A DNA stretch of 64,000 bases from positions 3,123 to 67,122 of the IMG/VR virus record IMGVR_UViG_3300030330_001640; one strand, written 5' to 3'. This DNA comes from a virus (Duplodnaviria > Caudoviricetes). The notes under the pieces are model-generated. The model was not told the DNA's origin, made no database searches, and saw nothing but the letters and a program-made list of their open reading frames with translations. The position numbers and the translations under genes are program-made. Below, in pieces: positions 5,124-53,113 of the stretch; position 1 is the stretch's first letter; each line of letters begins with the position of its first letter.

Positions 5124-5756
5124 ATGGCATTTAAAATGAAGTTTAGTGGATTTGGCGCTGGCACTGGATCTAATAAAACTAAAACTATATCGGACATAGA
5201 TCGTGACGCTTCGTCAGAAGTAGCAATGGATAGCGCTATGGGTAAAAAAATGCAAGCTCCATTGAAAGCTGTAAACATGACGAAGGAAGAAATGGAAAAA
5301 ACTATAGCCGATCTTAGAGCTGACGCGGCGCAAAAGGAAACTGATAAGGGAAGTTTTGGTGACGCTTTTAATGCCGCGAGATCTGCTGGTAAAAAAGAAT
5401 TTACTTATAAAGGTAAAAAATACCATACTAGAACTAAAGAAGAAGATGATGCCACTGAAAAAACATCTGGAGGCGTTGGTGAAAAAATTGGTGGAGCTGC
5501 GGCTGAAGCAGCTAATGAGCAAACAGCTGCGGCTGAAGCAGATAATGAGCAAACAGCTTCTCCAGAAATAGATAGACCTGATTATCAAAAAAGAAGACAG
5601 CAAAGAAGAATAGATAAAAGAAAAGGTAAGGCTGGTAAAGATCCAGTATATGATGCTAGAACTGCTAAAAAGGAAGCTAGAATGAAATACGGTAGAGATT
5701 CTAAAGAATTTAAAGAAGCAAATAAAGCATTACAAGATGCTAAAGCCAATAGATAA
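5124..5756 (+). CDS. MAFKMK-leader protein with FxxAFxxAR..GKKY module; candidate internal virion protein
   Basis: leader MAFKMKFSGFG; linkers SAMG and APLK; 30-nt direct repeat at 5496-5555. Confidence 0.7.
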   Translation: MAFKMKFSGFGAGTGSNKTKTISDIDRDASSEVAMDSAMGKKMQAPLKAVNMTKEEMEKTIADLRADAAQKETDKGSFGDAFNAARSAGKKEFTYKGKKYHTRTKEEDDATEKTSGGVGEKIGGAAAEAANEQTAAAEADNEQTASPEIDRPDYQKRRQQRRIDKRKGKAGKDPVYDARTAKKEARMKYGRDSKEFKEANKALQDAKANR

Positions 5757-6163
5757 TGGGATTTAAATTAGGCTCAGAGAGAAGAGATTTTAAAAGCTCT
5801 GATAATGTAAAGTTATCTAAAGGTTCTAATTTAAAAGTAGAAAACGTTGATGTTTTCAAAACACCTTTAGACAAAGGTACTATAGCGGAAGCTAGAAATG
5901 ATGGTACCATAGCTATTAACTCAGAAGCTAAACTAAGTGCTGCTATGCTAAAAAGAACTATTAAGCACGAGATGCAGCATTTAAAAGATATGGCAGATGG
6001 TAGAGCTAATTATGGAGATAACTGGGTTATGTGGGAAGGTAAAATATACTTCCGAAAAAACGGTATGATAGATGGGCCAGCAGGTAGATTACCTGAGGGA
6101 CATAAAGATCATCCGTGGGAGAAAGTGGCTATAGAAGCCGAAACAAAAAATGATAACAATTAA
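5756..6163 (+). CDS. small zincin-type metallopeptidase-like protein
   Basis: HEMQH (HExxH) helix preceded by a G-T-I-A-I-N strand, downstream PWE motif; leader variant MGFKLG. Confidence 0.6.
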   Translation: MGFKLGSERRDFKSSDNVKLSKGSNLKVENVDVFKTPLDKGTIAEARNDGTIAINSEAKLSAAMLKRTIKHEMQHLKDMADGRANYGDNWVMWEGKIYFRKNGMIDGPAGRLPEGHKDHPWEKVAIEAETKNDNN

Positions 6164-6181
6164 TTGATTAAATATATATAA

Positions 6182-7135
6182 ATGGCATTTAAAATGAAAG
6201 GTTGGAGTGCAGGGCAAGGTACAGGCTCGCATTCAGCACTATTAAAAAAACAAGAAGCTGCTATGAAATTACAAAAACAAGCAGCAATGAAAAGAATGGA
6301 TTCAGCAATGGACAAACCATTAGTTGGTAACCAAAAGAATTTACCTAAGCATCTTCAAGAAAAAATTGAAGCGGCACCTATGAAAAGAATGGCTCCAGGT
6401 GACGGCTCAACAAAAACAAAAGATAAAAGTACTATGAAAAGAATGTCACCAGGTGACGGTTCGGCAAGAACAAAAGATAAAAGTACTATGAAGCGTATGA
6501 AAGATAGTTCTATGAAGCGCATGAAAGACAGTTCTATGAAACGTATGAAAGATAGTTCTATGAAACGTATGAAAGATAGCGCTATGAAAAAAGATCCTGA
6601 TCCGTTTTTTGAAGCAATGAAGAAAGATCCTAATTTACGTAAACTCGTAGAAGAAAGAAATAAACATAAAAAAGGAACTGATGAGTATGCTGCAGCACAA
6701 AATAGAATTAACAAAGCATACGAAAACGCTAAAAGACACAATGTTAAAACTGAGACAACGTCTAAAACAAATCCAGTAACTGGTAGAAAAAAAGAAACAA
6801 CTGTTGAGACTACACCAGGTATAGGTACAAAAACAACAATTACTAAAAGTAAACAAGATGGTACAGTAACAAAACAAAAAGTTGATGATGTTCCTGATAG
6901 CTACTACAAAGATGAAGAGGCTACTAGAGAAAAGCAGAAAAGAGGAAAAGACAAAGAGTTTGGTACTGAAGACGATAAGAAAAAGAAAAAGAAAAAATTC
7001 AAAGATACTAAAGTCGGTAAGTTTTTAGGTGTAGGTAGAGGAGACGAAAGAAAGAAAAAAAGAGAAGAAGACAAAAAGAAAAAAGATGATAAAGGCAAAG
7101 GTGGACCTTTTGCTAGAATGAAAAACAATAGATAA
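6182..7135 (+). CDS. highly basic MAFKMKG-leader repeat protein
   Basis: leader MAFKMKGWS; 18-aa repeat x2 and 8-aa MKRMKDSS repeat x4; Lys-rich C-terminus. Confidence 0.75.
   Translation: MAFKMKGWSAGQGTGSHSALLKKQEAAMKLQKQAAMKRMDSAMDKPLVGNQKNLPKHLQEKIEAAPMKRMAPGDGSTKTKDKSTMKRMSPGDGSARTKDKSTMKRMKDSSMKRMKDSSMKRMKDSSMKRMKDSAMKKDPDPFFEAMKKDPNLRKLVEERNKHKKGTDEYAAAQNRINKAYENAKRHNVKTETTSKTNPVTGRKKETTVETTPGIGTKTTITKSKQDGTVTKQKVDDVPDSYYKDEEATREKQKRGKDKEFGTEDDKKKKKKKFKDTKVGKFLGVGRGDERKKKREEDKKKKDDKGKGGPFARMKNNR
6380..6583 (+). repeat. coding tandem repeats: 54 nt x2 (6380-6487) then 24 nt x4 (6488-6583)
   Basis: read directly from the sequence. Confidence 0.9.
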
Positions 7136-7185
7136 GAAGTAGAACTTTAAATCTACATAAGTTAAATTAAATTAAATCAAATATT

Positions 7186-8751: not shown

Positions 8752-8995
8752 CGATTACGTAATAGTAGATATAATAAAAGAAGGACCAAAGAAAGTTGGT
8801 GGCTTCATACTAACAGATGAAACAGATGAAACAAACCGATATAGAAAAGCTAATATTATCTCTGTTGGAAATATGGTGGAAGTGGTTAAAACTGGGGATA
8901 GCATATACTATGATGCTGTTGCTGGTCATGATATTGCTTATAATGATAGTATGTACCGGGTGATACGCGCTAGAGATATAGTTATAGTAGAATAA
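8738..8995 (+). CDS. groES: co-chaperonin GroES (Cpn10)
   Basis: AVNDYVIV start, VGGFIL mobile loop, ISVG, DIV end; overlaps groEL. Confidence 0.88.
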   Translation: MQAVNDYVIVDIIKEGPKKVGGFILTDETDETNRYRKANIISVGNMVEVVKTGDSIYYDAVAGHDIAYNDSMYRVIRARDIVIVE

Positions 8996-9014
8996 TTACT
9001 ATTTAGTAAAAACG

Positions 9015-18090: not shown

Positions 18091-19272
18091 ATGATAGAAC
18101 TAAACGAAGAAGTTACTGAAGAAGTAACTGACTCTGTTGAAGAAACAACAGACGAAAATCAAGAGCAACCAATTGAAGAGGTTGTAGAAGAAACAATAGA
18201 TGAATCTAAATTCGATAGCGCTGATAATCCAGATGTTATTAAAATAGATTTAGATAAAGCTCCTCAAGTAAAACAAGAGGATAATATAACAAAAGTAAAC
18301 ATAGACGAAAAATCTACTGAAGAAACAGTTGAAACTGAGCAACCAGTAATGGAAGAAGTTACAGAACAGGAAACTCAAGAAGTACAAGAAGTTGTCGAAG
18401 AGGCGATAGCTGAATCAGAAACAACTGGAAAACCTTTACCAGAAGGGGTACAAAAGCTAGTGGAGTTTATGAACGAAACTGGTGGTGATTTAAACGACTA
18501 TGTAAAATTAAACAGGGACGTTAAAGAAATGGACGACTCTGATGTATTAGATGAGTACTATAGAAGTACTAAATCTCACTTAACGCCAGAAGAAAGAAGT
18601 TTTCTTTTAGAAGATAACTTTGGTTATGATGATAGCGTTGATGATGAAAAACAAATACGTAAAAAGAAAATAGCCCTTAAAGAGCAAGTTGCTGAGGCTA
18701 GAGCCTACTTAGACGGGCAGAAGTCTAAATACTATGAAGAAATTAAAGCTGGTTCAAAGTTGACCGATGAACAACAAGAAGCTATTAATTTTTATCATAA
18801 ATACAATAAAGATTCTGAAAATCAGAAGAAACTTACTGAAAAAAGTAATAGAACATTTTTAAATAAAACTGACAGTTTCTTTGGACAAAATTTCAAAGGT
18901 TTTGAATATAATGTTGGAGATAAAAAATATAGGTTTAATGTTAAAGATGTAGATAAAGTAAAGAAAACTCAAAGCGATCTTAATAATTTTGTCAACAAGT
19001 TTGTTGGCGATGATAGTACAACCATTGAAGATGCTGAGGGTTATCACAAGTCTTTATATACCGCTATGAACGCTGATAGCATTGCTAAACATTTTTACGA
19101 GCAAGGTAAAGCTGATGCAATTAAGGAAAGGATAGCTAAAGATAAAAATATAAATCTTAATCCTAGACAAACGCATGGCGAGGTTAACGTAGGTGGTATT
19201 AAAGTAAGAGCTTTAGGTGAATCTTCTTCTGATATGAAAAACAGATCTTTTAAAATTAGAAAGAAAAATTAA
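18091..19272 (+). CDS. capsid scaffolding protein
   Basis: very acidic N-terminal half, helical C-terminus; between portal and capsid genes. Confidence 0.75.
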   Translation: MIELNEEVTEEVTDSVEETTDENQEQPIEEVVEETIDESKFDSADNPDVIKIDLDKAPQVKQEDNITKVNIDEKSTEETVETEQPVMEEVTEQETQEVQEVVEEAIAESETTGKPLPEGVQKLVEFMNETGGDLNDYVKLNRDVKEMDDSDVLDEYYRSTKSHLTPEERSFLLEDNFGYDDSVDDEKQIRKKKIALKEQVAEARAYLDGQKSKYYEEIKAGSKLTDEQQEAINFYHKYNKDSENQKKLTEKSNRTFLNKTDSFFGQNFKGFEYNVGDKKYRFNVKDVDKVKKTQSDLNNFVNKFVGDDSTTIEDAEGYHKSLYTAMNADSIAKHFYEQGKADAIKERIAKDKNINLNPRQTHGEVNVGGIKVRALGESSSDMKNRSFKIRKKN

Positions 19273-19290: not shown

Positions 19291-20799
19291 ATGGCAATTA
19301 CAGGTGGACCTAGTTTGAATAGTGTTCCTGCTCCTCAGCAAGTAGCATTATCAACAAACTACATCGATTTTACAAGTGGCACAAATGATTGGTCACAACA
19401 ATACCTGCCTGACTTAATGGAAAAAGAAGCTGAAGTTTTCGGACCGAGAACTATTTCTGGTTTCTTATCTAAAGTTGGAGCGGAAGAGGCTATGCAATCT
19501 GATCAGGTTGTTTGGTCTGAACAAGGAAGATTACACTTATCATATACTGGTAAAGTTGCTACGGCAGGTGGTGTTAACGTTAACTCTATTGGCGCTGCTT
19601 CTCAAATAACTTTACAGAAAAATATTGATGGTGTAACTATTACATCTGGTGGCTCAACAGCTAATCACGGTGTTAGAGTTAATGATACTATTATAGTAGC
19701 TGACTCTGTTAACGGCGTTGTTAAATGTTTAGTTATAAAAGTAAATGATAACGTTATTGACGTTTCTCCATATACTGTTGATAACTTATCGGATCAAACA
19801 ACTGATAATGCGACAACTATTTTAGTTTATGGTTCTGAATACGCAAAAGGTACTTCTTACTTTTCTAACGCTACGGCGTCTACAAGTGGAAACTCTGCTG
19901 ACTCAAGAACAGCTAACGAACCTGATTTTAAATCATTTTCAAACAAACCAATTATTATGAAAGATTATTACGAAGTATCTGGATCAGACGCTTCTAGAAT
20001 TGGTTGGGTTGAAGTTGCAGCAGAAGCTGGGCAATCAGGTTATTTATGGTACTTAAAAGCTGAAGCTGATACAAGAGCAAGATTTACTGATTACTTAGAA
20101 ATGGCAATGTTAGAAGCTGTTAAAGACGGTACTTCTCATGCTGATGAGGTTTTTATTGCTGGTTCTACTCCAATTGGTAGTCAAGGTTTATTTGACGCTA
20201 TTGAAGATAGAGGTAATATTACTTCTGGTGTTACTGGTGTTAACGCTGCTACTGATTTAGCTGAGTTTGACGCTATCTTAGCTGAGTTTGATAAGCAAGG
20301 TGCTATTGAAGAATACATGATGTTTGTTAACAGAGCTACTAGTTTAGCTATTGACGACATGCTAGCTTCAATGAATTCTTATGGAGCTGGTGGTACTTCT
20401 TACGGAGTATTTGACAACTCAGAAGATATGGCATTAAATTTAGGTTTCTCAGGATTTAGAAGAGGTTCTTATGATTTTTATAAATCTGACTTTAGATACT
20501 TAAATGATCTAGCTACAAGAGGTGGTATTAACGCTGCTGCTGGTGCTAACGCAATTAGAGGTGTTATGATACCTGCAGGTGTTACTACTGTTTATGACCA
20601 ACAAATGGGTAAAAACTTAAAAAGACCTTTCTTGCACGTTAGATATAGAGCTTCTCAAACAGACAATAGAAAAATGAAAACTTGGACTACAGGTTCTGTT
20701 GGGGCTGCTACATCAGCATTAGATGCAATGCAGATTCACTTTTTATCAGAAAGATGTTTAATCACTCAAGGTGCAAACAACTTTATGTTAATGAAGTAA
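19291..20799 (+). CDS. major capsid protein
   Basis: 502 aa after scaffold and followed by a strong terminator; size and position fit HK97-fold MCP. Confidence 0.88.
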   Translation: MAITGGPSLNSVPAPQQVALSTNYIDFTSGTNDWSQQYLPDLMEKEAEVFGPRTISGFLSKVGAEEAMQSDQVVWSEQGRLHLSYTGKVATAGGVNVNSIGAASQITLQKNIDGVTITSGGSTANHGVRVNDTIIVADSVNGVVKCLVIKVNDNVIDVSPYTVDNLSDQTTDNATTILVYGSEYAKGTSYFSNATASTSGNSADSRTANEPDFKSFSNKPIIMKDYYEVSGSDASRIGWVEVAAEAGQSGYLWYLKAEADTRARFTDYLEMAMLEAVKDGTSHADEVFIAGSTPIGSQGLFDAIEDRGNITSGVTGVNAATDLAEFDAILAEFDKQGAIEEYMMFVNRATSLAIDDMLASMNSYGAGGTSYGVFDNSEDMALNLGFSGFRRGSYDFYKSDFRYLNDLATRGGINAAAGANAIRGVMIPAGVTTVYDQQMGKNLKRPFLHVRYRASQTDNRKMKTWTTGSVGAATSALDAMQIHFLSERCLITQGANNFMLMK

Positions 20800-38400: not shown

Positions 38401-41400
38401 GTGTGGACTGGTGTTGAAGGCGCTAATTACTGGGAAGGTATAGATGAGTCTTTCGTAAATGGTTTCTTTTTATCTACATTAATGCACATGCCTGCTATAG
38501 CTAATCAAGCTGTTATACAACCTTTTACTAAATCTGATACAAATCAAAGATTAGGAGAAATAGCTGAAAAATTAGCTGAGCTTAAATCGTACAAAGGTAA
38601 ATCATACGAAGAGTTAACTGATAAAGAAAAAGAAGAAGTTGATAAGCAGGTTGCTGAATTAGGCTTGCAAGCAGAAGAGTTATTAACTAGAGAATTATTT
38701 AAGGTAGATTTACTTACCAATGAACAAAAACAAAGATTACTAGAAATAAATAGATTAGATTTAGAAGCTCGTAAATCATACGAGATAATAATGGCTGATA
38801 GAAGTATAAAATCTGAAGATAAAATAAAAAGATTAACTGAGATAGAACAAGGTATAGAATCAAGAAGAGGTGAAAAGGATAAAATACTAGCTACAGTTAA
38901 TCCAGAAGCTGCTGAGAAAAAGTATAAAGAAAGCATGCAAAACATTAAAGATCAAGCTGATCTTGCTAACGAAATGGGTGGAGTTGAAGTAGAATTATAC
39001 GAACAAACTGATGAGCAATTTCAAGAAGATCAATCTAAAGATGAACAAAATAAATCTGCTGATGAAGTAGCAGATATAACCGCAGAATCAGAGGCTACAA
39101 TCGTTACGTTAACTGAGTCGATTGAAGAATCTGACAAAAATATAAAAGAATCTAAAGATAAAATTACTGAGACAAGAAAAGAAATAAAAGATATAAAGAA
39201 CGATAAGAAAAAAAATGACAATCAGAAGCTGAAAGAAATTGATAAAAAGAAAAAAGAGATTGACAAGGAAAAGAAAAAAATAATAAACGAAAGTAAGAAT
39301 AAAAAAGATGCTGAAAATTTAATAAGAGATAAAGGCGTACTACAAACAAACGTAAAAGTTGGGGCAAGTATTTTAAAAGATAATCCTTATGGTAGAATGA
39401 GACCTATATACGATAAAAACGGTAATCTTACTAAACTTAAACTATATGTCAATAAAGATAAGTCTATTGCTGATGGCATGTGGACTACAGGTGCTCATGA
39501 AATGATCCACGCTGTTTTTGCTAATACTATAAAATCAGATCCAGCCATGAGATTAAAACTTGGTGGAGCAATGGCCAAGATACTTAAAGGTAAAAATATA
39601 GAATTTAAAACAATGTCTGCTGCTGATATGTTTAATAAAAGGGTGGCTCAGTATAGTATCGATAAACAAGGTGAAGAAGCTTTAGCTATAGCTTCTGAAA
39701 TGTTAATAAAAGGAGATATAATACTAAAAGAAAGTACGTTAGGTAAGTTAGGTAGTATATTTAGAAGATGGTCTATGGATAGATATGGTACGACTTTTAA
39801 TTTTAATAACTCAAATGATATATTAAATTTTATAAAAGACTATCATTATTCTATTAAAAATAATAAACCAAGTAAAGCTATAGCAAAAATGTTAGCTAAA
39901 GGAGCTAATGGTAAAATGTTTGAAGGCGCTAAAACACCGCAAGATAGATCTAATTTAGACATGCATAGCGCTGTAGTTGGTAAATCTATAGAATCAGATC
40001 CTGATTTAAGACCGTTTTTTGATGATGTGGTTAAAGATAAAGGTGGGAAAGTTAAACATAGAAATCATGAAGATTTTAAAGCTTCCCCAGAATATATAGA
40101 AGGTTATGAAAAAATAGTTGATACTAATAAATTAAATGGTATAATACAAGCAGGCATGACAGAAAGAGGTTTACCTCCAGATGCGTTAAAAGATTTTACT
40201 AGAAAAGTTAAAGAAGAATTAGGTATAAGATACTTAAAAAATTATAATGTAGACAAAAACGACAGTTTATTCGGTTGGTTAACAGGTGTAGCAGGTGGAC
40301 AAGGCCAATCAATAATATATAGAGCGAAAGGCGATGTGATGAATGAGTACAAAAAACAAGTACCTAAGACATCTATAGATAAACCTATAAGTGAGTCTGG
40401 CACAGTAGCTGACGTAATACAAGCGGAAAAAGATGTGTTAATAGATAAAATTGAAAACGCAGACATGTCACCTGAATTATTACAAGAGTCTGTTCAAGAT
40501 GTTAATGACTTAATAATGGTAATGGATATGCTTGGTTTTTCAAATAATGTTAAGCAAGCTGTAAAAGATATTGTTAAAAGATCTAATATTAATTTGGATA
40601 ACTTAACTTATAAAGGTGTAAGAGATTTATTACTATCTGTTCAAAGTAAAGCTACTACTGAAAAAAATGTTGTACCTACAGGACCTTTGTTTGAAATATT
40701 AAATGCTATATCAGCTGAGTTTGGAGTTGATCCCCTTAGAATATTAGCTAAACAAGATTTAAATGCTGAACAAAGAAAAGCAGCACAAGAATATATATAT
40801 AATAAATCTACCAACGATGATGGTTCTTTTAATACAAGTTTGCTAGATATATTACCTGAAGGCCAAGACAGAGATGGTAGAGCCACTGGTGTTGCTAATA
40901 CTAAATTAGGGGAGTTCTATACTAAAGGCGATAGACTTAAGGTAAGGGAAGGCGCTAAAAAAGGTTTAGGCCAAAAGTTCGCTCAAAATAAAAGAACTAA
41001 CGTAACTAGAGAGCAGTTATTAGGTTTGTTTGGTATAAATACTGATGGTACTTTTCAACCTGGTACTAAAGCAGATGGAGCTATTAGAGAGCTAATAGTT
41101 CAAGTATCTCAATTAGCAGCTAATCAAGAAATAAGATTAGATGCTGTAGAAAATAGAGTAGAAGCAGCTAGTAATATAGCTAGATTAAAAGATGGCACTT
41201 CTTTAACTATGTACTCAAACCCTCCTAAAATTAATACTAAACAAAAAGTCGAGTTGGCAAAACAACTTTTCGATAAAAATTCAAATGTTTATGCTGAAAA
41301 TATACCAACAATACGTATTCAAACATTAACGCACATTTTAAAGTATGGTGATGATATAAAAAAGCTACAAGAGAAAAGACAGAGAATTATATATTACGAC

Positions 41401-44400
41401 GCTCCATCACCACTTAACCCGGATATAACAATGGGTGAACAGTTGAAACTTGATGTAGATGACTTCTTAAAACAGTATCCACAATATTACGATCAATTAA
41501 GAAATACAATGACTGGTGGAATAGGGATAAGTACTTTCTTTTCTGTAGAAAACTTTGAAAAAATGTTTCCTAGAGAAAAGTATGAACTTGGCGGATTATT
41601 TGCACAACAATCGCTTCCAAGAAATAGTTATACTTTTAAAAGCGATACAAAAACTGGTAAAAAAAGAAGATTTAATCCAAAGACTTTAAATAAAAAAGAT
41701 GACTCTAAACAAAGGTTAGATATACTTTACAACTTTGCTAAAGCAATGGAGGGTTACGTAAAAACAAATAAAAATCCTAAACCAGGGAATATTTACTTAT
41801 TCTCATTAATGGCATCTGATACTGTTAATAATCAGAATGGTGCTATAACTAGAATATTATCTCCATTTAGTTTTTATACTATAATGAAAAATGGTCAGCC
41901 AGATACAACTAATATAATGACAGAAGAGCACGCTGGTCCACAAAAGAGTATAATGGATATGTTAGTTAACGCAGCTAGAGTAGGTAAAGTTGATACAGTT
42001 TGGCCTATAGTTGAAGCTGTATTTGCACAAGGAACTTTATTAGATGTAATTGATAAAAGATTAAAAGACGTTAAAAATAGAGATGGTAAAAATCTTCAAG
42101 AAAATTTACCAGATATATTTTGGGATAGCATAGCAGAAAGAGTACTTGATGGTAAACTAGATGATCTACCACAAGGCTCTATAGCTATGGTTAGATATTT
42201 TGTGGCTGGTAAAGAGTTAAATATAGACATAATAAATACCATAAAATGGAAAAACGGTAAAACACTAGCCGAAATATTTGGGGTTAAAGTAGATGGTGAG
42301 ATATCACCAACTATATTTCAAGCTCAATATGACTTAGTATTAGATTATTTATCAGGTAATATAACTAAAGAAAAATTAGCTGAAGCTGTTAATAAGTTAA
42401 ACATAGAAGGTATAAACTATGTTGATGCTGTTAAAGAAGCACGCGATGTTAAAACAGGAGTACTTACATTGAATAACAATATGTACGATAGCTATAGTAA
42501 ACCTGTTAAAGTTAGAGGTATGTCTACATTTGATTTTGATGACACGTTAGCTAGAACTAAATCAGGTGTTAGGTACACAATGCCAAATAATACTGGTGAG
42601 CCAGCGCCTGGCAGAAAAGTTATATTCTTAGCTGGTAGTGCTGGTAGCGGTAAATCAAATGTTGTTAAGCAGTTAGGTTTACAAGAAAAAGGTTTTAAAA
42701 TAGTAAACCAAGATATAGCTTTAGAGTGGTTAACTAAAAATAGTGGACTACCTACAGATATGAGAGACTTTACACCTGAGCAAGCTAGTAAATGGGGAGA
42801 ATTACAATGGGAGGCTAGAGATATAGCACAACGTAAAGCTATTAAATTTAGAGGTAGAGGAGATGGTGTTGTGGTAGATGGCACAGGGGCAAGTACTGTT
42901 TCTTTATTTACACAAGCTCAAAAATATAAAGACGCGGGATATGATGTTAAAATGTTGTTTGTAGAAAGTTCTTTAGATACAGCTTTAGCTAGAAATAAAG
43001 CTAGAAAAGAAAGATCGTTAAAAGATTTTATAGTTGAACGTAACTGGAAAGCTGTACAAAAAAATAAAAAAGCTTTTAAAGAAGAGTTTGGTAATAATTT
43101 TACAGAAGTAAATACTGATAACTTAAAACAAGGTGATGCTATGCCTAACAACGTTGTCGTAGCTATAGATAACTTTACTAGTGGTTACATAAAAGGTAGA
43201 TTAACAGCAGAAGAATTTGCTAGCAAGGGTGGAGATTTATTAGATCAAGGCGCTTCATTTGATTTTTCTGAATTTAATAAAGTTGTAGATGGCACGCCAG
43301 GTCCTTTACTTGATAAAGCTAGAAACAGAGCTAAGAAGTTTGGTACAAAAGATATGTTTGTTTTAACGGCTAGACCTCAACAATCTGCTTTTGCTATACA
43401 ACAGTTTTTAAAAGGACAAGGTTTAGATATACCAATAGAAAACATAACTGGTTTAGCTAATAGTTCTGGTAATGCTAAAGCACAGTGGATGTTAGATAAG
43501 TTTGCTGAAGGATATAACGACATGTACTTTGTAGACGATGCTCTACAAAATGTTGAAGCTGTAAAAGCCGTACTAGATCAATTAGATATTAAATCTAAAG
43601 TAGTTCAAGCTAAATTAAAAGATCAAGGTAAGTTAGTAGAACCAGGTAATAATACTATGTATAGCAAAGTAGTTAATCCTGATAACATTAATATAGATAA
43701 AGAGTTTAATAATATTCTTGAGGTTAAAAAAGGTGTTGATGCTAATAAAAGGTTTTCATCTGCAGAAGCTAGAAAAAGAGGGGCTAAATTTAGATTAAGA
43801 CTTTACATACCACCATCAGCAGAAGACTTTAAAGGTTTATTATATTATTTCTTACCTAAAGGTAAAGAAGGTGAAAAGGCTTTAAAGTTTTTCGAAAAAA
43901 CATTATTAAAACCTTTTGCAAGAGGTATTAGAGCTTGGAACTCGTACAAACAAAATATGGTTAACGAGTATAACGATTTAAGAAAAAAATTTCCAGATGT
44001 AACTAAAGTTTTAAATGATAGAGTACCTGGAACTAGTTTTACAAATGATACCGCTATAAGAGTTTATTTGTGGACAAAAGCAGGATTTGATATTCCAGGT
44101 ATATCAAAAGCATTACAAAAAAGATTAGTAACTCACGTTAATGGAAACCCTAATTTAAAAGCGTTTGCTGATGGCTTATCAAAAGTTACTCGTAGAAAAG
44201 ATGGTTATCTTCCGCCAAATAAAAATTGGATGATGGAAGCTATACCCACTGATTTAAGAAATCTTGTAGACAAAGTAGGTAGAAAAGAGTTTTTACAAGA
44301 GTGGATTAATAATAAAGAAGAAATATTTTCTCAAGAAAATATTAATAAAATAGAAGCCTTGTATGGCTCAGACTTTAAATCAGCTTTATTAGATATACTA

Positions 44401-46011
44401 TTCCGTATGGAAAATGGTGGTAATAGAAAGCAAGGAAAAAGTAAATTAGTTAATAATCTTACTGATTGGATAAACGGGTCTATAGGTGCTATTATGTTCT
44501 TTAATATGAGATCTGCTTTATTACAAACACTATCAACTGTTAACTTTATAAACTGGAGTGATAACAATATGTTCAAAGCAGCAGCAGCATTTGCTAATCA
44601 AAAACAGTTTTGGCAAGACTTTGTAATGTTATTTAATTCACCAATGTTAAAACAAAGAAGAAAAGGTTTGCAAACAGATGTATCAGCAGCAGAATTAACA
44701 AAGTCATTTAAAGAAAGAGGGTATAGTCCAACTACAGTTATTAGTTATTTATTACAAAAAGGTTTTTTACCTACGCAAATAGCAGATAGTTTTGCTATTG
44801 CTTTTGGTGGCGCTAGTTTTTATAGAAATAGATATAACAAATATATTAAACAAGGTATGTCTGCTAAAGAAGCTCATGATAAAACTATGTTAGAGTTTCA
44901 AGAGATAGCTGAAGAAACTCAACAGTCATCAAGAGAAGATTTAGTATCACCACAACAAGCTGGACCATTAGGTAGGTTAATATTGGCTTTTCAAAATGTT
45001 ACAATGCAGTATGGTAGGTTGACTAAGAAAGCCTTGTCTGATACTGTTAATGGTAGAGGTGATATGAAAACTAATGTGTCAAAGTTAATATACTATGGTA
45101 TGGTGCAGAATGTAATATTCGCTGCACTACAGTCTGCTTTAGCATTTATAATGTGGGGCGACGATGAGGAAGAGATAAAAGATCAAACAACTAGAACAGC
45201 TAATAGTGTATTAGATTCTTTCTTACGTGGTACTGGAATATATGGAGCTATAGTTTCTACAATTAAAAATACTATAATACAATGGGATTTACAAAGCAAT
45301 AAAGATTATGGTAAAGCTAGACCCGAAAAAATACTATTAGAAATAGTTAATATATCCCCGCCAATAGGTAGTAAGCTTAGAAAAGTAATGAACGCTTATT
45401 ATGCTGAAGAATTTAATAGAGGTTTATCAGATGAGTTGGGATTAAGATTAGAAAATCCAACAATAAAAAAGTGGGCTAGTCTTGTAGAAGCTGCTACTAA
45501 TATACCTTTAGCTAGATTACTTAATAAAGCTAATAACTTAGAAGAAGCGATAACTGGTAATCATGAACTGTGGAAAAGAATAGCTATGTTTGCTGGTTGG
45601 AGTATGTGGAATATAGGCGTTGAAGATGAAGAAGTAGTAGCTGCTAAAGAAAGTCTAGCTGAGAAAAAAGAAATTGAAAAAGAAAAAGAAAAGGAAGAAA
45701 AGAAAATAGAGAAAGAAAAAGAAAAAGAAGAAAAGAAAAAAGCAGAAGAAGAAGAGAAGAAAAGAAAAGGTATTAAAACTGTAAGATGTTCTGGTATAAG
45801 ATCTAATGGTGAAAGATGTAAGTTAACAACTGAAACAGCTGAAAAGAAATATCTGTGCCCACATCACATGGAATTTACAGATGGTATGGACAGAGATGGC
45901 GATGGTATTAAAGAATATAGATGTACTTTTATTAAGAAAAACGGAGAACAGTGTAAGATGAAAGGTGAGTACGGAAAAGAAAAAAGATGTTATCATCATG
46001 TAGACAAGTAA
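35443..46011 (+). CDS. giant (3522 aa) multidomain ejection protein with metallopeptidase, HAD phosphatase, P-loop kinase and C-terminal zinc fingers
   Basis: HEMIH at 39496; DFDDT at 42532; GSAGSGKS at 42634; LTAR and FVDD HAD motifs; two C-x9-C..C-x2-H repeats. Confidence 0.75.
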   Translation: MGKIYRLSNGGLVTVMVDDETNFFNILKERNLTAELVNDPNTEYDNVPSYKVSLSSNDTQEDPTVEVEQKTTLNQEISTINKVVEIIPKEQVKDYVIGEGLDFAKSTPNEILTYQNAKDYFNQRSEVMSYFNSDDYKELDTMDKVVNNSMTKNSGYLSLDIYGPVSTWDENATMRNKEVRDKIFAGTHGYNPYEDKLYKLQDPVEVDLGAKTYALKQQTSYQTFNSFMESLENPKKYPEYVDETGKVISMEPSTKTSDMFPDSGISEDAGMVAYNTPPILDVNALSKYEKDFVDTFGPIYYSYGFNMEQAKGFHLIKSWDQQAVKVTAMNGKSITIDVDVKGDTAKEQLKIFMDFVNANTHSKGGEDMLGEMFYEETKPTEEQIHNIETNFTVANEIIDKMRIAFNMPDATDAEIINIYNDFSRYRENEIGDITKHSDAYHSDLDIRFEGSNINWSLEKVKYFQDALANELGENYTDFISEYIGALNHIVSYEKDFYEGENGVILEAFLQDSKAVSEFVKGEGVYMSDFYKDKPKEFFTKHAMGQTLWKELLESEYYKTWRKNWIKQNKNNYDQTVDINSKKLYRFNETIDIIQKNASEHVEFFSSNAFDRSELQEVVYKDMVLDIKNVEKEIAESLVEIDFLTETMDDLYSTQIAMEEELISMGINQYDVLEDIAEKYNITSQEDFLSNENAMAEFREYEKKYSDLYNEYEILITQTIPANNKLLYEKYDVIDTSAWKAEEMKLMMDVLGRNSEWGTYYSTIGGIAIMETVIGGTAALVSSVTDAYLELGEYHPAMQMVLEDLNSWGDSLGTEVKKRAEYGRSTLALPTQWGDITGVSSAMDYLVTNTLQTAPILILASASGGYALPVMGVYSGSQKYDNMRRSRNLFEDTAGMFGQDFTLGEMLLNSVVTGTAEGLTEKITFGQWRKLGYFANNPAAKLGFEKALRKSIYTPKKMAQFVAYNGKQFTEEGVSEMIADFSSNTMDVWTGVEGANYWEGIDESFVNGFFLSTLMHMPAIANQAVIQPFTKSDTNQRLGEIAEKLAELKSYKGKSYEELTDKEKEEVDKQVAELGLQAEELLTRELFKVDLLTNEQKQRLLEINRLDLEARKSYEIIMADRSIKSEDKIKRLTEIEQGIESRRGEKDKILATVNPEAAEKKYKESMQNIKDQADLANEMGGVEVELYEQTDEQFQEDQSKDEQNKSADEVADITAESEATIVTLTESIEESDKNIKESKDKITETRKEIKDIKNDKKKNDNQKLKEIDKKKKEIDKEKKKIINESKNKKDAENLIRDKGVLQTNVKVGASILKDNPYGRMRPIYDKNGNLTKLKLYVNKDKSIADGMWTTGAHEMIHAVFANTIKSDPAMRLKLGGAMAKILKGKNIEFKTMSAADMFNKRVAQYSIDKQGEEALAIASEMLIKGDIILKESTLGKLGSIFRRWSMDRYGTTFNFNNSNDILNFIKDYHYSIKNNKPSKAIAKMLAKGANGKMFEGAKTPQDRSNLDMHSAVVGKSIESDPDLRPFFDDVVKDKGGKVKHRNHEDFKASPEYIEGYEKIVDTNKLNGIIQAGMTERGLPPDALKDFTRKVKEELGIRYLKNYNVDKNDSLFGWLTGVAGGQGQSIIYRAKGDVMNEYKKQVPKTSIDKPISESGTVADVIQAEKDVLIDKIENADMSPELLQESVQDVNDLIMVMDMLGFSNNVKQAVKDIVKRSNINLDNLTYKGVRDLLLSVQSKATTEKNVVPTGPLFEILNAISAEFGVDPLRILAKQDLNAEQRKAAQEYIYNKSTNDDGSFNTSLLDILPEGQDRDGRATGVANTKLGEFYTKGDRLKVREGAKKGLGQKFAQNKRTNVTREQLLGLFGINTDGTFQPGTKADGAIRELIVQVSQLAANQEIRLDAVENRVEAASNIARLKDGTSLTMYSNPPKINTKQKVELAKQLFDKNSNVYAENIPTIRIQTLTHILKYGDDIKKLQEKRQRIIYYDAPSPLNPDITMGEQLKLDVDDFLKQYPQYYDQLRNTMTGGIGISTFFSVENFEKMFPREKYELGGLFAQQSLPRNSYTFKSDTKTGKKRRFNPKTLNKKDDSKQRLDILYNFAKAMEGYVKTNKNPKPGNIYLFSLMASDTVNNQNGAITRILSPFSFYTIMKNGQPDTTNIMTEEHAGPQKSIMDMLVNAARVGKVDTVWPIVEAVFAQGTLLDVIDKRLKDVKNRDGKNLQENLPDIFWDSIAERVLDGKLDDLPQGSIAMVRYFVAGKELNIDIINTIKWKNGKTLAEIFGVKVDGEISPTIFQAQYDLVLDYLSGNITKEKLAEAVNKLNIEGINYVDAVKEARDVKTGVLTLNNNMYDSYSKPVKVRGMSTFDFDDTLARTKSGVRYTMPNNTGEPAPGRKVIFLAGSAGSGKSNVVKQLGLQEKGFKIVNQDIALEWLTKNSGLPTDMRDFTPEQASKWGELQWEARDIAQRKAIKFRGRGDGVVVDGTGASTVSLFTQAQKYKDAGYDVKMLFVESSLDTALARNKARKERSLKDFIVERNWKAVQKNKKAFKEEFGNNFTEVNTDNLKQGDAMPNNVVVAIDNFTSGYIKGRLTAEEFASKGGDLLDQGASFDFSEFNKVVDGTPGPLLDKARNRAKKFGTKDMFVLTARPQQSAFAIQQFLKGQGLDIPIENITGLANSSGNAKAQWMLDKFAEGYNDMYFVDDALQNVEAVKAVLDQLDIKSKVVQAKLKDQGKLVEPGNNTMYSKVVNPDNINIDKEFNNILEVKKGVDANKRFSSAEARKRGAKFRLRLYIPPSAEDFKGLLYYFLPKGKEGEKALKFFEKTLLKPFARGIRAWNSYKQNMVNEYNDLRKKFPDVTKVLNDRVPGTSFTNDTAIRVYLWTKAGFDIPGISKALQKRLVTHVNGNPNLKAFADGLSKVTRRKDGYLPPNKNWMMEAIPTDLRNLVDKVGRKEFLQEWINNKEEIFSQENINKIEALYGSDFKSALLDILFRMENGGNRKQGKSKLVNNLTDWINGSIGAIMFFNMRSALLQTLSTVNFINWSDNNMFKAAAAFANQKQFWQDFVMLFNSPMLKQRRKGLQTDVSAAELTKSFKERGYSPTTVISYLLQKGFLPTQIADSFAIAFGGASFYRNRYNKYIKQGMSAKEAHDKTMLEFQEIAEETQQSSREDLVSPQQAGPLGRLILAFQNVTMQYGRLTKKALSDTVNGRGDMKTNVSKLIYYGMVQNVIFAALQSALAFIMWGDDEEEIKDQTTRTANSVLDSFLRGTGIYGAIVSTIKNTIIQWDLQSNKDYGKARPEKILLEIVNISPPIGSKLRKVMNAYYAEEFNRGLSDELGLRLENPTIKKWASLVEAATNIPLARLLNKANNLEEAITGNHELWKRIAMFAGWSMWNIGVEDEEVVAAKESLAEKKEIEKEKEKEEKKIEKEKEKEEKKKAEEEEKKRKGIKTVRCSGIRSNGERCKLTTETAEKKYLCPHHMEFTDGMDRDGDGIKEYRCTFIKKNGEQCKMKGEYGKEKRCYHHVDK

Positions 46012-49241: not shown

Positions 49242-49243
49242 TT

Positions 49244-50002: not shown

Positions 50003-50005
50003 ACA

Positions 50006-50287
50006 ATGGCGTTTAAAAGAAAACCTTTCTCTGGTTTTGGTAATAAAATAAAAACCGCAAGAGCGAAAAGATTAACAAGGAAATTTGTTGGATCAACTAC
50101 TGTTGATGGTCCTGATACCTATAATATTTCTGAAAAAAAATATCTTAAAGCAGAAAAAAAAATGATGAAAGCTGATAAGCTTTTAAAAAAAGCTGGGTAT
50201 GGGCTTGAGTATAGAGAAGGAGCTTTAGGCGCTGAGGGTTATCAAACAGCTATGGATTGGGCTAGTAAAAATAAAAAAAGAAAATAA
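50006..50287 (+). CDS. basic MAFK-leader protein
   Basis: MAFKRKPFSGFG start. Confidence 0.7.
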   Translation: MAFKRKPFSGFGNKIKTARAKRLTRKFVGSTTVDGPDTYNISEKKYLKAEKKMMKADKLLKKAGYGLEYREGALGAEGYQTAMDWASKNKKRK

Positions 50288-51029: not shown

Positions 51030-51031
51030 TT

Positions 51032-51367
51032 ATGGCTTACGTACAAAAAAATAATCCTATACCTATTACCGGCTGTGGTAGACGTAGATCAGAACAAATG
51101 AATAATCCATTTAAAAAGGTAGACATAAAGGCTTTAAAAAAGGTTTCTAAAGAATTAAAGAAAGCTAGTAAAACACACGCTGGTCAAGCAGAAAAAATAG
51201 CTTCTGCATTAACAATGAAAAGCCCTATGAACAAAGGTATAAGTGGGCCTTGCAAAGCTGCTGCTAAAAAGAAATTTAAAGTATGGCCTAGTGCTTATGC
51301 TTCAGGTTGGGGCGTAAGATGTACTAAAGCTGGTGGACCTGGTAGTATGGGTAAAAGTAAAAAGTAA
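51032..51367 (+). CDS. basic modular protein with WPSAYASG module
   Basis: MAYVQKNNP leader; NPFK and SPMN linkers; KFKVWPSAYASGWGVRC. Confidence 0.7.
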   Translation: MAYVQKNNPIPITGCGRRRSEQMNNPFKKVDIKALKKVSKELKKASKTHAGQAEKIASALTMKSPMNKGISGPCKAAAKKKFKVWPSAYASGWGVRCTKAGGPGSMGKSKK

Positions 51368-51909
51368 TGGCTAAAAAAACTTCTAAGTCTATTACATGGC
51401 ACGACTCAGACGCTCCTGACGCTAAAGGTAAATTTAGAGATTTATCAGCATCAGCGTTAGCTTCATGGTTAATTAAAACTAGAGATGGTAATCTTAAAAA
51501 AATTATAGGTAGTTTAAATCAACAATACGTTTTCAACAGGGGTAAAAAACCTGCTTATGCTCGTAAGATGAAAACGGTTATGAATATAGTTAGAAAAAGA
51601 TTAGGTAAAAAAGAGGACTCACCATTAAAAAGGAAAGACCCTTTAGTTGGTACTGGTAAAAAACCTAAAGGTAGTGGTAGAAGATTATATACTGATGAAA
51701 ACCCTAAAGATACAGTAGGTATTAAGTTTGCAACAGTAGCTGATGCTAGAAAAACAATTGCTAAGGTTATGAATATAAATAAACCTTATGCTAGAAAAGT
51801 ACAGATATTAACTGTACTAGAGCAGAGAGCTAAGGTAATGGGTAAAATGGAACAAGCTAGATTAGCTAAATCAGCTAAAGCTACATTAAAAAAACAAAAT
51901 AATGCTTAA
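51367..51909 (+). CDS. basic two-module protein (GTGKKPKGSGRRLYTDENP)
   Basis: two modules separated by EDSPLKRK. Confidence 0.7.
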   Translation: MAKKTSKSITWHDSDAPDAKGKFRDLSASALASWLIKTRDGNLKKIIGSLNQQYVFNRGKKPAYARKMKTVMNIVRKRLGKKEDSPLKRKDPLVGTGKKPKGSGRRLYTDENPKDTVGIKFATVADARKTIAKVMNINKPYARKVQILTVLEQRAKVMGKMEQARLAKSAKATLKKQNNA

Positions 51910-52423
51910 AGATTTTAATATAGATAAATTTAAAAAAAATAAACCTCCATCTGATAATTCATTTGACACGATGCAAGAGATTAAGCAGTTGCAAAAAATT
52001 AATATGGATAAAAGTTTTGTTAAAAAATTTGATGATGGCAAAAAAGTTTTTACTAATGTAGTTGGTAAAGATCCATTAATAAGTAAATTAATAGATCAGT
52101 CGACTCCTCATATAATGAGTTTAAAAAAATATTTTAATAGACCTAGACCAGCTGTATTAGCTCGTAAATTAAAATTAAAACTACATGATATAAAACTAAA
52201 GTCTATGGATACACCGGCTTACCCTTCTGGTCATGCTACTCAGGCTACATTATTACAATTAGCTTTATCTGATAAGTATCCTAATAAAAAAAAAGAACTT
52301 AAAGCCCTTGCAGAAAACATAATTAAAAGTAGACATTTGGCTCATACTCATTATAAGTCAGATAGTGATATGGGTAGAAAATTAGGCGAAGCAATGTATC
52401 AACATATAAAAAATAAATTATAA
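51902..52423 (+). CDS. PAP2-superfamily phosphatase / haloperoxidase-like, soluble
   Basis: all three motifs: K-x6-RP (KKYFNRPRP), PSGH, SR-x5-H-x3-D (SRHLAHTHYKSD). Confidence 0.85.
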   Translation: MLKDFNIDKFKKNKPPSDNSFDTMQEIKQLQKINMDKSFVKKFDDGKKVFTNVVGKDPLISKLIDQSTPHIMSLKKYFNRPRPAVLARKLKLKLHDIKLKSMDTPAYPSGHATQATLLQLALSDKYPNKKKELKALAENIIKSRHLAHTHYKSDSDMGRKLGEAMYQHIKNKL

Positions 52424-52797
52424 TGGCGTTTAAAATGAAAGGATTTTCTGGATTTGTAGATGACTCACCAATGAATTGTTGGAAGGGTTATGAGCGCGTA
52501 CCTGGTACAGCTAAAGGCTCAAAAGGTAGTTGTCGTAAACCATCGCCAATTAAAAAACAAAAAGGTGGTGGTACAACTAAAACCTGTTTACCAGCTGCTA
52601 AAATACGTAGCTTAAGTAAAGAAAAAAGACAACAATTAGTTAGCTCTAAACGATCAGCTGGAGCTCAAGGTAAATATAAAAGATCATCTAAAACAAATGT
52701 TAAAGGCGCTCGTAAAAAAGGAGCAACATTGAGAGACTGGTTTGAAAAAGAAGACTGGAGAAGAGTAGATGATCCATCTAAAAAATGTGGAGAATAG
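52423..52797 (+). CDS. basic MAFKMKG-leader modular protein (CWKGY module plus DUF5872-like module)
   Basis: MAFKMKGFSGF; SPMN then CWKGYERV; SPIK then KTCLP..LRDWFEKEDW. Confidence 0.7.
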   Translation: MAFKMKGFSGFVDDSPMNCWKGYERVPGTAKGSKGSCRKPSPIKKQKGGGTTKTCLPAAKIRSLSKEKRQQLVSSKRSAGAQGKYKRSSKTNVKGARKKGATLRDWFEKEDWRRVDDPSKKCGE

Positions 52798-52798
52798 T

Positions 52799-53113
52799 AT
52801 GGCGTTTAAAATGAAGGGCTGGAGCCCATATACAAAAGCAGATCCAAGGCGTACCATAGGCCCTGGTAAAAATTTTAATAAAGCAAACCCAACGGGCACG
52901 GGTGCTGCTGCTGGTGGAGGTATGACTCAAAAAGGTGTTGATGAATATAAACGTAATAATCCAGGAAGTAAATTGCAGACCGCTGTCACCACACCGCCTT
53001 CACAATTAAAAGCAGGTAGTAGAAAGGCTAAACGTAGAAAAGCGTTTTGTGCTAGGTCAAGAAGCTGGAAAAGTGAAAGAGGTAAAGCAGCTAGAAGAAG
53101 ATGGAACTGTTAA
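52799..53113 (+). CDS. basic MAFKMKG-leader protein with DUF6321-like module
   Basis: start re-assigned to 52799 (MAFKMKGWSPY); GGMTQKGV..NPGSKL..RRKAFCAR..RWNC. Confidence 0.75.
   Translation: MAFKMKGWSPYTKADPRRTIGPGKNFNKANPTGTGAAAGGGMTQKGVDEYKRNNPGSKLQTAVTTPPSQLKAGSRKAKRRKAFCARSRSWKSERGKAARRRWNC

What the first reader, a model, noticed from the sequence alone, without database searches (positions are those of the whole stretch)
5124..53113. Shared MAFKMKG leader on otherwise unrelated basic proteins: candidate capsid-cargo targeting system
Seen: MAFKMKFSGFG (5124), MAFKMKGWS (6182), MAFKRKPFSGFG (50006), MAFKMKGFSGF (52423), MAFKMKGWSPY (52799), plus variants MGFKLG (5756) and MAYVQK (51032). 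The bodies are unrelated, Lys/Arg-rich, and lie in two late-gene clusters about 43 kb apart. Known: T4 internal proteins share a short N-terminal capsid-targeting sequence that is removed by the head protease. Inference: a portable address tag that loads interchangeable payloads into the head for co-injection with DNA.
Basis: partly seen in the sequence, partly recalled or inferred. Interest (0 to 1): 0.85.

Follow-up and report, generated by a model that had tools for sequence, protein, structure and literature searches.

The report
Shared address tag on phage proteins
An uncultured marine phage and its whole clade put the same 11-residue peptide (MAFKMKG...) at the front of dozens of unrelated small basic proteins and of a tiny zinc protease. 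It most likely marks proteins to be loaded into the virus particle, but no experiment has tested this.

Summary
Five ORFs start with MAFK[MR]K, against 0.0001 expected by chance. The two "variants" (5756, 51032) belong to the same leader family.

The tag is selected as a peptide, and it sits at the N-terminus:
- FKMKG occurs 148 times at the start, 17 times within the first 18 residues, and only twice deep inside 461,000 residues.
- Substitutions are conservative and wobble bases vary.

It is specific to one clade. At least 119 IMG/VR contigs carry it, and 38 of 40 tested share the window's capsid protein. It is absent from 50,697 deposited phages. In 596 Gb of cellular genomes it occurs only at chance level.

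About 200 tagged proteins fall into about 95 unrelated body families. They are Lys-rich, poor in hydrophobic residues, and 12-fold enriched in Ser-Pro-hydrophobic-Lys.

The universal and probably original carrier is a ~105-135 aa HExxH zincin (window 5756-6163). In other phages this zincin has no tag and is fused to the C-terminus of the homologue of the window's 3,522-aa giant protein.

Best reading (about 0.45): a docking tag that recruits the zincin and basic cargo into the particle, possibly trimmed by the zincin. This works like the T4 capsid-targeting sequence but shares no sequence with it and no T4-type protease was found. Virion location is untested. The scan has noted other shared phage leaders, and the SPxK motif, on other DNA.

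The parts
5124..5756 (+). Tagged protein, 210 aa: MAFKMKFSGFG leader with a charged, unassigned body
   Evidence: no significant Pfam or PHROG family; K+R 0.21.
5756..6163 (+). Small HExxH zincin, 135 aa, with the variant leader MGFKLGSE. Its family is the universal carrier of the tag.
   Evidence: Invariant H71, E72, H75, W121, E122. AlphaFold2 pLDDT 78.8, leader disordered. Best fold matches are zincins: selecase and abylysin (prob 0.99, E 0.13) and PprI/IrrE (Z 6.1). Found in 10/10 complete clade records.
6182..7135 (+). Tagged protein, 317 aa: MAFKMKGWS leader, then Lys-rich body with (S/A)xMKRM repeats
   Evidence: It belongs to the largest body cluster, the 'AMKMK' proteins (37 members).
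50006..50287 (+). Tagged protein, 93 aa: MAFKRKPFSGFG leader
   Evidence: An orthologue in L058 starts MAFKMKGFSGF.
51032..51367 (+). Protein with the second leader class (MAYVQKNNP), 111 aa, and a WPSAYASGW module
   Evidence: Weak DUF5872 match (E 0.017, below cut-off).
52423..52797 (+). Tagged protein, 124 aa: MAFKMKGFSGF leader on a highly conserved CWKGY...KQKGGGTTKTCLP...RDWFEKEDW body
   Evidence: More than 1,500 homologues, the best 120 at 61-93% identity, with variable N-termini.
52799..53113 (+). Tagged protein, 104 aa: MAFKMKGWSPY leader on a DUF6321 body
   Evidence: Pfam DUF6321 at 2.4e-10. The orthologue in G022 is 82% identical, with only the first ~12 residues swapped to MAYIQSNNPFKK.
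18091..19272 (+). Acidic scaffold-like protein, 393 aa, between portal and capsid genes. It ends in a conserved hydrophobic-Lys alternating tail (..NRSFKIRKKN) that resembles the tag.
   Evidence: The tail is conserved in 20/20 clade relatives and in phi38:1 gp092 and Panino. The resemblance is only modest in a PSSM ranking.
35443..46011 (+). Giant protein, 3,522 aa, with a zeta-toxin/AAA_33 kinase-like domain. Its homologues in other phages carry the untagged zincin at their C-terminus.
   Evidence: Pfam. 46% identity over 652 aa to P0212, E 4e-170. Zincin at residues 2619-2709 of the 2,725 aa of P0212.
19291..20799 (+). Major capsid protein candidate, used to define the clade
   Evidence: phrog_13704, 3.5e-97. 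52-79% identity in 38/40 tag-bearing records; 39-46% identity to cultured Bacteroidota phages.

Best explanation
The 11-residue N-terminal peptide M-A-[FY]-K-[MLI]-K-G-[FWSM]-[SP]-[FMLY]-x is a portable docking (address) tag that acts as a peptide.

It is the native N-terminus of a small phage zincin. In the window's subclade it has been copied onto 5-8 other genes per genome. These genes encode small, Lys-rich, largely disordered proteins rich in SP-hydrophobic-K, which probably bind DNA.

The tag most likely attaches these proteins non-covalently to an internal component of the assembling particle, so that they are carried in the virion and delivered with the DNA. Candidate components are the giant protein, the scaffold-like protein or the capsid interior. 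For the zincin, the tag would do what covalent fusion to the giant protein does in other phages. The zincin may also trim the tag.

Shown: the tag's reality, N-terminal position, peptide-level selection, portability, clade distribution and zincin linkage.
Inferred: virion location, the binding partner and any cleavage.
For: - Chance is excluded: 5 observed against 0.00012 expected.
- The tag is positional. FKMKG occurs 148 times at the N-terminus, 17 times within the first 18 residues behind a short extension, and twice deep inside 461,078 residues.
- Selection is on the peptide. Third-codon positions vary (GCA/GCG/GCT, TTT/TTC, AAA/AAG). Upstream there is only a generic A-rich stretch at -13..-9 and an A at -3. 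There are 50 conservative variants (MAFKLK, MAFKMR, MGFKMK, MAYKMK) against 1 hit for a permuted control pattern.
- The tag is portable. 201-208 tagged proteins fall into 94-95 body clusters, 73 of them singletons. Of 94 representatives, 2 match DUF6321 and 2 have single weak hits to other Pfam families (E 3.6e-4 and 5e-4); the rest match nothing. One orthologue pair is 82% identical with only the tag exchanged.
- The tag is confined to one clade. 38/40 tag-bearing records share the capsid protein. All 66 copies in those 38 records lie on the capsid-gene strand. No match was found in deposited phages, and cellular genomes show only chance or internal matches.
- The zincin is present in 10/10 complete clade records. 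In the divergent subclade genomes G012 and G033 it is the only tagged gene.
- Across 1.84 billion proteins, free-standing or N-terminal zincins mostly start M[AGS][FY]K[LMI]. Thirteen giants of 1,886-2,912 aa carry the zincin untagged at their C-terminus. One of these giants, P0212, was compared with the window's giant protein and is its homologue.
- Small basic proteins gp69 and gp80, and the giant last gene gp101, are annotated as structural in phi38:1, from proteomics of phi18:1.
Against: - There are no virion data for any member of the clade.
- No canonical prohead protease was found, and there is no conserved cleavage motif after the tag. Information content simply fades after residue 11.
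- AlphaFold2 leaves the tag disordered and does not dock it on the zincin.
- The same body families occur untagged in a sister clade and with other N-termini in hundreds of relatives. So the tag is not essential to those bodies.
- The virion location of the giant protein rests on gene order and a marginal BLASTP match to phi38:1 gp101 (E 8e-4).
- The resemblance of the tag to the scaffold tail is weak: it ranks 1-4 among non-N-terminal sites in only 4 of 6 genomes.
- None of the window's tagged proteins shows detectable homology to proteins of phi38:1 or Panino.
Confidence: 0.45

Rival explanations
1. Leader-peptide and peptidase system without capsid targeting. The tag is the recognition and pro-sequence of the zincin, which trims itself and every protein that carries a copy of its N-terminus, and perhaps also cuts at SP-hydrophobic-K sites. 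This would release mature basic peptides in the infected cell.
For: The zincin is universal in the clade and is the ancestral tag carrier. SP[LMFIAV][KNQ] is 12-fold enriched in tagged bodies. It also sits at the linker-zincin junction of the giant fusions, as ..KSP[TA]KKLE... Hydrophobic residues at tag positions 3, 5, 8 and 10-11 would suit a zincin that prefers a hydrophobic residue just after the cut (my own knowledge, not tested).
Against: In G012 and G033 the zincin is the only tagged gene, so it would have no other substrate there. The models show no docking of the tag in the active-site cleft. The active-site assignment rests on weak fold matches. This reading does not explain why fused zincins lack the tag.
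Confidence: 0.2
2. Docking motif for a host factor, or a degron. The tag binds one host hub, such as a protease adaptor, the ribosome or the nucleoid, giving many phage proteins the same destination or a short half-life.
For: The tag is N-terminal, short, alternates hydrophobic and basic residues, and tolerates a 2-10 residue extension. From my own knowledge, its hydrophobic-hydrophobic-basic-hydrophobic pattern resembles the ClpX N-terminal recognition motif of lambda O. This was not tested.
Against: All copies lie on the structural-gene arm. The untagged zincin is fused to the giant protein of the structural operon. No cellular protein uses the tag at its start.
Confidence: 0.13
3. A by-product of cassette shuffling or common descent. 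The conserved 5' end is a recombination joint, or the remnant of one fast-evolving paralogue family, with no addressing function.
For: Tag classes are exchanged between close orthologues. Tagged genes cluster at the two ends of the structural arm and vary in number from 1 to 8 per genome. The bodies are low-complexity and could have diverged beyond recognition.
Against: Wobble positions vary while the amino acids are kept. The upstream DNA is not conserved. Folded, clearly unrelated bodies carry the tag: the zincin, DUF6321, the Cys-containing CW module, and 505-561 aa proteins. The position dependence is extreme.
Confidence: 0.1
4. An RNA-level signal, such as a translation-initiation enhancer or an operator for a translational repressor that overlaps the start codon.
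For: The start region is A/U-rich with A at -3 and at -13..-9. This resembles the start-site context reported for Bacteroidota (my own knowledge).
Against: In 17 genes FKMKG is displaced 2-15 codons downstream of the ATG. K-to-R and M-to-L/I replacements keep the peptide but not the RNA. Wobble bases vary.
Confidence: 0.04

Closest known systems
Capsid targeting sequence (CTS) of phage T4 internal proteins IPII/IPIII, removed by the gp21 prohead protease (PMC9958956, section 3.1; Mullaney and Black 1996, cited there)
   Same: A ~10-residue N-terminal peptide shared by otherwise unrelated, polymorphic small basic proteins encoded by a tailed phage. Its portability is inferred here from comparative data.
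   Different: There is no sequence similarity. The phage is a podovirus-type relative of Bacteroidota phages, not a T4-like myovirus. No T4-type serine protease and no Glu-type cut site were found. The tag's original owner is a zinc metallopeptidase. Packaging and cleavage are untested here.
Minimal zincins (minigluzincins selecase, abylysin, jannalysin) and the DNA-responsive zincins IrrE/PprI, CapP, SprT/Wss1
   Same: HExxH helix plus a downstream Glu; about 100 residues; a beta-sheet plus active-site helix. These are the best fold matches.
   Different: The scores are weak (Foldseek E 0.13, VIA Z 6.1). No Pfam family matched; the best was DUF7664 at E 0.081. The second half is beta-hairpin rich. 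Peptidase activity, metal binding and DNA dependence are untested.
SPKK / S-P-x-K minor-groove-binding motifs of histone H1 and sperm H2B (my own knowledge)
   Same: Lys-rich disordered proteins with recurrent Ser-Pro-x-Lys, enriched 12-fold over shuffled sequence, in an AT-rich genome (32.65% GC).
   Different: The third position here is hydrophobic (L/M/F/I/A). DNA binding was not tested. The motif may instead mark module borders or cut sites.
Cargo or ejection proteins of other phages: P22 and T7 internal proteins, N4 virion RNA polymerase, and the capsid and muzzle cargo of crAss-like Bacteroidota phages (my own knowledge)
   Same: Proteins stored in the head and delivered with the DNA. 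There is a giant protein at the end of the structural operon, and a weak match of the 2,171-aa protein to the crAss muzzle C-terminal domain (E 0.0019).
   Different: As far as I know, those systems are not described as using a shared short N-terminal tag on many unrelated proteins.

Membership tests
T4-type capsid targeting sequence system | A short N-terminal peptide shared by otherwise unrelated phage proteins | tested here: met
T4-type capsid targeting sequence system | Sequence similarity to the T4 CTS, and a cleavage site ending in Glu for a gp21-type serine protease encoded by the phage | tested here: not met
   The tag contains no Glu, and no conserved motif follows residue 11. No prohead protease family was found in Pfam or PHROG scans of the window's + arm ORFs. 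The T4 consensus is from my own knowledge and PMC9958956.
T4-type capsid targeting sequence system | Tagged proteins are present inside the head, and the tag is sufficient to package a foreign protein | not testable with these tools
   The clade is uncultured, and no proteome was found in deposited phages.
Zincin metallopeptidase (HExxH plus a third ligand) | Invariant HExxH on a helix and a conserved downstream Glu | tested here: met
   H71, E72, H75 and W121-E122 are invariant in 18 sequences. The helix spans residues 62-80 in the model.
Zincin metallopeptidase (HExxH plus a third ligand) | Zincin fold, or membership of a curated family | tested here: inconclusive
   The hit lists are dominated by zincins but the scores are weak (Foldseek E 0.13, prob 0.99; VIA Z 6.1). 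No Pfam family reached its cut-off. PHROG 16532 and 10499 match but have unknown function.
DUF6321 (Pfam PF19846) | Profile match above the gathering score | tested here: met
   Window 52799-53113 scores 41.3 bits against a cut-off of 28.5.
SPKK-type DNA-binding motif proteins | Recurrent S-P-x-K in basic disordered proteins | tested here: met
   1.93 per 1,000 residues, against 0.16 in shuffled sequence and 0.19 in other proteins.
SPKK-type DNA-binding motif proteins | Binding to the DNA minor groove | not testable with these tools
   This needs biochemistry.
Pervagoviridae-like Bacteroidota podoviruses (phi38:1 group) | Shared terminase, portal and capsid genes, and the same gene order | tested here: met
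   PHROG terminase at 6.4e-173 and portal at 2.3e-148. Capsid protein 39-46% identical to Flavobacterium and Maribacter phages and an uncultured Caudoviricetes record, with weaker (<60%) matches in Cellulophaga phages. Same order GroES-terminase-portal-scaffold-like-capsid. The window's clade is a distant, uncultured sister group.

The most novel reading that the evidence does not exclude
The tag, the zincin and the SP-hydrophobic-K motif form one system. A zinc metallopeptidase, related in fold to DNA-activated zincins such as IrrE/PprI and SprT, is loaded into the particle by its own N-terminal tag. Inside the particle or just after ejection, it trims the same tag and/or SPxK junctions from a changing set of histone-like core proteins bound to the phage DNA. 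This would be a metalloprotease-based counterpart of adenovirus core-protein maturation, and a head-maturation or cargo-processing chemistry not known in tailed phages.
Probability: 0.15. Interest if true: 0.85.

Novelty: new variant of a known kind. Interest (0 to 1): 0.68.

Why it matters
If the tag is an address label, it identifies by sequence alone the full, fast-changing set of proteins that an abundant, uncultured group of marine Bacteroidota phages carries into its hosts. That set is about 95 body families so far, nearly all without a known function.

It would also be a second, independent case of the T4 capsid-targeting principle, in a very different phage lineage and linked to a metalloprotease rather than a serine protease. 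It would give a simple handle for loading foreign proteins into such particles.

The link between a free, tagged zincin and an untagged zincin fused to the giant protein gives a concrete hypothesis for the binding partner that can be tested.

Tried and rejected
- Cultured carriers of the tag: none found. Panino (whole genome) and phi38:1 lack it. A blastn search with the 36-nt consensus against 50,697 phage records gave only noise. tblastn with the window's zincin gave nothing. A typical zincin hit only distant, untagged homologues in Ochrobactrum, Xanthomonas and Methylophilales phages.
- Literature: no paper contains MAFKMKG or its variants. DUF5872 and DUF6321 appear in one unrelated paper.
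- Homology of the window's tagged proteins to phi38:1 or Panino proteins, including the mass-spectrometry-supported gp69, gp77 and gp80: none.
- 'The tag is an internal repeat or linker motif': rejected, because it is almost exclusively N-terminal.
- 'The second ATG (MKG..) is the true start': unlikely. The Bacteroidota-type A-rich context precedes the first ATG, and codon 2 varies only at its wobble base.
- Cellular use of the tag: rejected. The hits in 596 Gb of genomes are at chance level or are an internal stretch of an asparaginase-like enzyme.
- Tag docking in the zincin cleft: not seen in two AlphaFold2 models.
- 'The tag mimics the scaffold tail': kept only as a weak lead.
- Whether clades with a fused zincin lack tagged small proteins: inconclusive. 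The one sister-clade contig at hand (L151/L152) has neither a tag nor a zincin in the 12 kb held.

Full report
**What the window is.** The window is bases 3123-67122 of a 67,122-bp IMG/VR virus record that CheckV rates complete. It has 32.65% GC.
- A single + strand arm (3875-53113) holds GroEL, a GroES-like gene, terminase, portal, a scaffold-like protein, the capsid protein, tail-type giants and lysis-type genes. Small genes on the - strand and nucleotide-metabolism genes fill the rest.
- The capsid protein is 39-46% identical to those of Flavobacterium 'elemo' phages, Maribacter phage Panino and an uncultured Caudoviricetes record, with weaker matches in Cellulophaga phages of the phi38:1 group. 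Gene order matches phi38:1 and Panino.
- The phage is therefore an uncultured relative of podoviruses that infect Bacteroidota.

**The observation.**
- By composition, 0.00012 ORFs should start MAFK[MR]K. Five do.
- With the first 11 residues removed, no pair of the seven bodies reaches BLASTP E<0.05.
- Pfam assigns only 52799 (DUF6321, 2.4e-10). The untagged neighbour 51902 is a PAP2 phosphatase.

**How widespread the tag is.**
- These gave 147 sites, nearly all 0-14 codons after a stop. The median protein length is 113 aa.
- Of 40 of the larger records, 38 encode a capsid protein 52-79% identical to the window's.
- In those 38 records, every one of 66 tag copies lies on the capsid-gene strand.
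- Complete records are 61-69 kb. The tag therefore marks one uncultured marine clade.
- It is absent from Panino and phi38:1 and from 50,697 deposited phage records.
- In 596 Gb of prokaryote genomes the pattern occurs 74 times, about chance level. None is the start of a small phage-like ORF. About 25 are an internal stretch of a Bacteroidota asparaginase-like enzyme.

**Peptide or nucleotide signal.**
- Wobble positions vary: GCA 102, GCG 25, GCT 15; TTT 126, TTC 16; the two Lys codons AAA 127/120 against AAG 15/22.
- The upstream DNA shows only an A-rich stretch at -13..-9 and an A at -3.
- Among 3,313 ORFs in the loci, 208 match a relaxed pattern. The substitutions are conservative (MAFKLK, MAFKMR, MGFKMK, MAFKIK, MAYKMK). 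A permuted control pattern matches once.
- FKMKG occurs 148 times at the very N-terminus. It occurs 17 times within the first 18 residues behind a short extension (MSIPFKMKG, MARKSKAKFKMKG). Only 2 occurrences are deep inside 461,078 residues.
- The information profile gives M-A-F-K-M-K-G-[FSMPW]-[PS]-[FMLY]-[FKYH] and then fades. There is a weak S-P-x-K-K at residues 14-18.
- The tag is therefore an N-terminal peptide signal, not an RNA element and not an internal repeat.

**Portability.**
- 201-208 tagged proteins fall into 94-95 body clusters, 73 of them singletons.
- Of 94 representatives, 2 match DUF6321 and 2 have single weak hits to other Pfam families (E 3.6e-4 and 5e-4). The rest match nothing.
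- The bodies are 17% Lys and 22% hydrophobic, against about 32% hydrophobic for the phage's folded proteins. 74 of 94 have a net positive charge.
- A second class, MAY[IV]Q[KS]NNP, heads three body families. Hybrids such as MAYKQKGFSPF link the two classes.
- The window's DUF6321 protein and its orthologue in G022 are 82% identical overall and differ mainly in the first 12 residues: MAFKMKGWSPYTK against MAYIQSNNPFKK.
- The 52423 body has more than 1,500 homologues, the best 120 at 61-93% identity, with many different N-termini.
- A sister clade carries the same body families with no shared tag.

**The zincin.**
- Window 5756-6163 has invariant H71, E72, H75, W121 and E122 in an 18-member alignment.
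- AlphaFold2 gives a confident fold (pLDDT 78.8) with a disordered tag. The same holds for a member with the canonical tag.
- Foldseek's top hits are selecase, abylysin and jannalysin, with IrrE/PprI lower in the list (E 0.13-1). The exhaustive aligner ranks PprI first (Z 6.1), followed by many other zincins. These scores are weak but consistent.
- The gene is present in 10/10 complete clade records.
- In the divergent subclade genomes G012 and G033 it is the only tagged gene. The window, G019 and G022 have 5-8 tagged genes.
- A profile search of 1.84 billion proteins finds 1,202 clusters. Of the best 150, 67 of the 137 non-giant proteins start M[AGS][FY]K[LMI].. .
- Thirteen giants of 1,886-2,912 aa carry the domain at their extreme C-terminus without the tag. 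It follows a Lys-rich linker that in several ends ..KSP[TA]KKLE...
- One such giant, P0212, is a clear homologue of the window's 3,522-aa protein: 46% identity over 652 aa, E 4e-170. Both contain a zeta-toxin/AAA_33 kinase-like domain.
- The window's giant ends instead in two Cys/His-rich knuckles.
- So the zincin is either fused, untagged, to the giant protein or free with the tag. This is the pattern expected if the tag replaces a covalent link.

**Is the giant protein in the virion?** This is an inference.
- It is the long gene near the end of the structural gene block, followed only by small tail-fibre-like and lysis-type genes.
- In phi38:1 the corresponding last gene, gp101, is annotated structural from proteomics of phi18:1.
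- Direct similarity is marginal (E 8e-4). PHROGs give only the kinase.
- Small basic proteins gp69 and gp80 of phi38:1 are also annotated structural, but they are not detectably homologous to the window's proteins.

**Other leads.**
- The scaffold-like protein between portal and capsid genes ends in a conserved alternating tail: DFKFKIKNK, SSFKFKMKSKK, NRSFKIRKKN. In phi38:1 it is SKLRFKRKK and in Panino AKIKLRNY. It resembles the tag, but a PSSM scan ranks it only 1st to 4th among non-N-terminal sites in 4 of 6 genomes. I keep it as a weak candidate for a shared binding site.
- SP[LMFIAV][KNQ] occurs 1.93 times per 1,000 residues in tagged bodies. That compares with 0.16 in shuffled sequence and 0.19 in other proteins. 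The reversed motif is not enriched.
- The phage also encodes an Hc1 histone-like protein.

**Verdict.**
- The capsid-cargo reading is the best explanation (0.45) but untested.
- It works like the T4 CTS (PMC9958956) without being a member of that system.
- Rivals: a leader-peptidase system without packaging (0.20); a host-hub or degron motif (0.13); a shuffling by-product (0.10); an RNA signal (0.04). The first rival is compatible with the main reading.
- Earlier notes of this scan describe other shared leaders in unrelated phages, and the SPxK motif in other marine phages. None mentions this tag.

Noticed in passing
window:53147-53329 (-): A 60-aa histone H1-like Hc1 protein (Pfam PF07432, 2.3e-19), encoded by the phage next to the tagged cluster. 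A homologue lies in the same position in the sister-clade contig L151.
   Followed up: partly
window:35443-46011 (+): The 3,522-aa giant protein has a zeta-toxin/AAA_33/polynucleotide-kinase-like domain at residues 2392-2576 and ends in two Cys/His-rich knuckles. Homologous giants in other phages end in the zincin domain instead.
   Followed up: partly
tagged proteins of the window and loci L011-L129: Ser-Pro-hydrophobic-Lys/Asn is 12-fold enriched in tagged bodies. It also sits at the linker-zincin junction of the giant fusion proteins. It may be a DNA-binding turn, a module border or a cut site.
   Followed up: partly
window:18091-19272 (+): An acidic scaffold-like protein whose extreme C-terminal tail of alternating hydrophobic and Lys/Arg residues is conserved across the clade and in phi38:1 and Panino. 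Its phi38:1 homologue gp092 is annotated structural from proteomics.
   Followed up: partly
window:34636-35415 (+): A 259-aa protein with a Hint/Vint autoprocessing domain (Pfam PF14623, 7.5e-09), directly upstream of the giant protein.
   Followed up: no
window:23478-29993 (+): A 2,171-aa virion-type protein (phrog_14478, 5.7e-108) with a sub-threshold match to the crAss-virus muzzle protein C-terminal domain (E 0.0019).
   Followed up: no
window:59866-60054 (-): A small conserved ORF on the early arm starts MGYKMKTC, and MGYKMKTCLISGK in G022. It looks like the tag but lacks the G-[FW]-[SP] continuation and lies on the opposite strand, so it is probably unrelated.
   Followed up: no
window:50628-51029 (+) and 48186-50002 (+): A thioredoxin-fold protein with an N-terminal hydrophobic segment (Pfam 1.7e-08), and two proteins with hydrophobic signal-peptide-like N-termini, lie between the lysis-type genes and the second tagged cluster.
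   Followed up: no
window:51902-52423 (+): A soluble PAP2-family phosphatase (Pfam 4.7e-08) lies in conserved order PAP2, CW-module protein, DUF6321 protein, both in the window and in related contigs L007-L010.
   Followed up: partly
window:1925-1999 (-): A single tRNA-Arg(TCT) among the small early genes.
   Followed up: no
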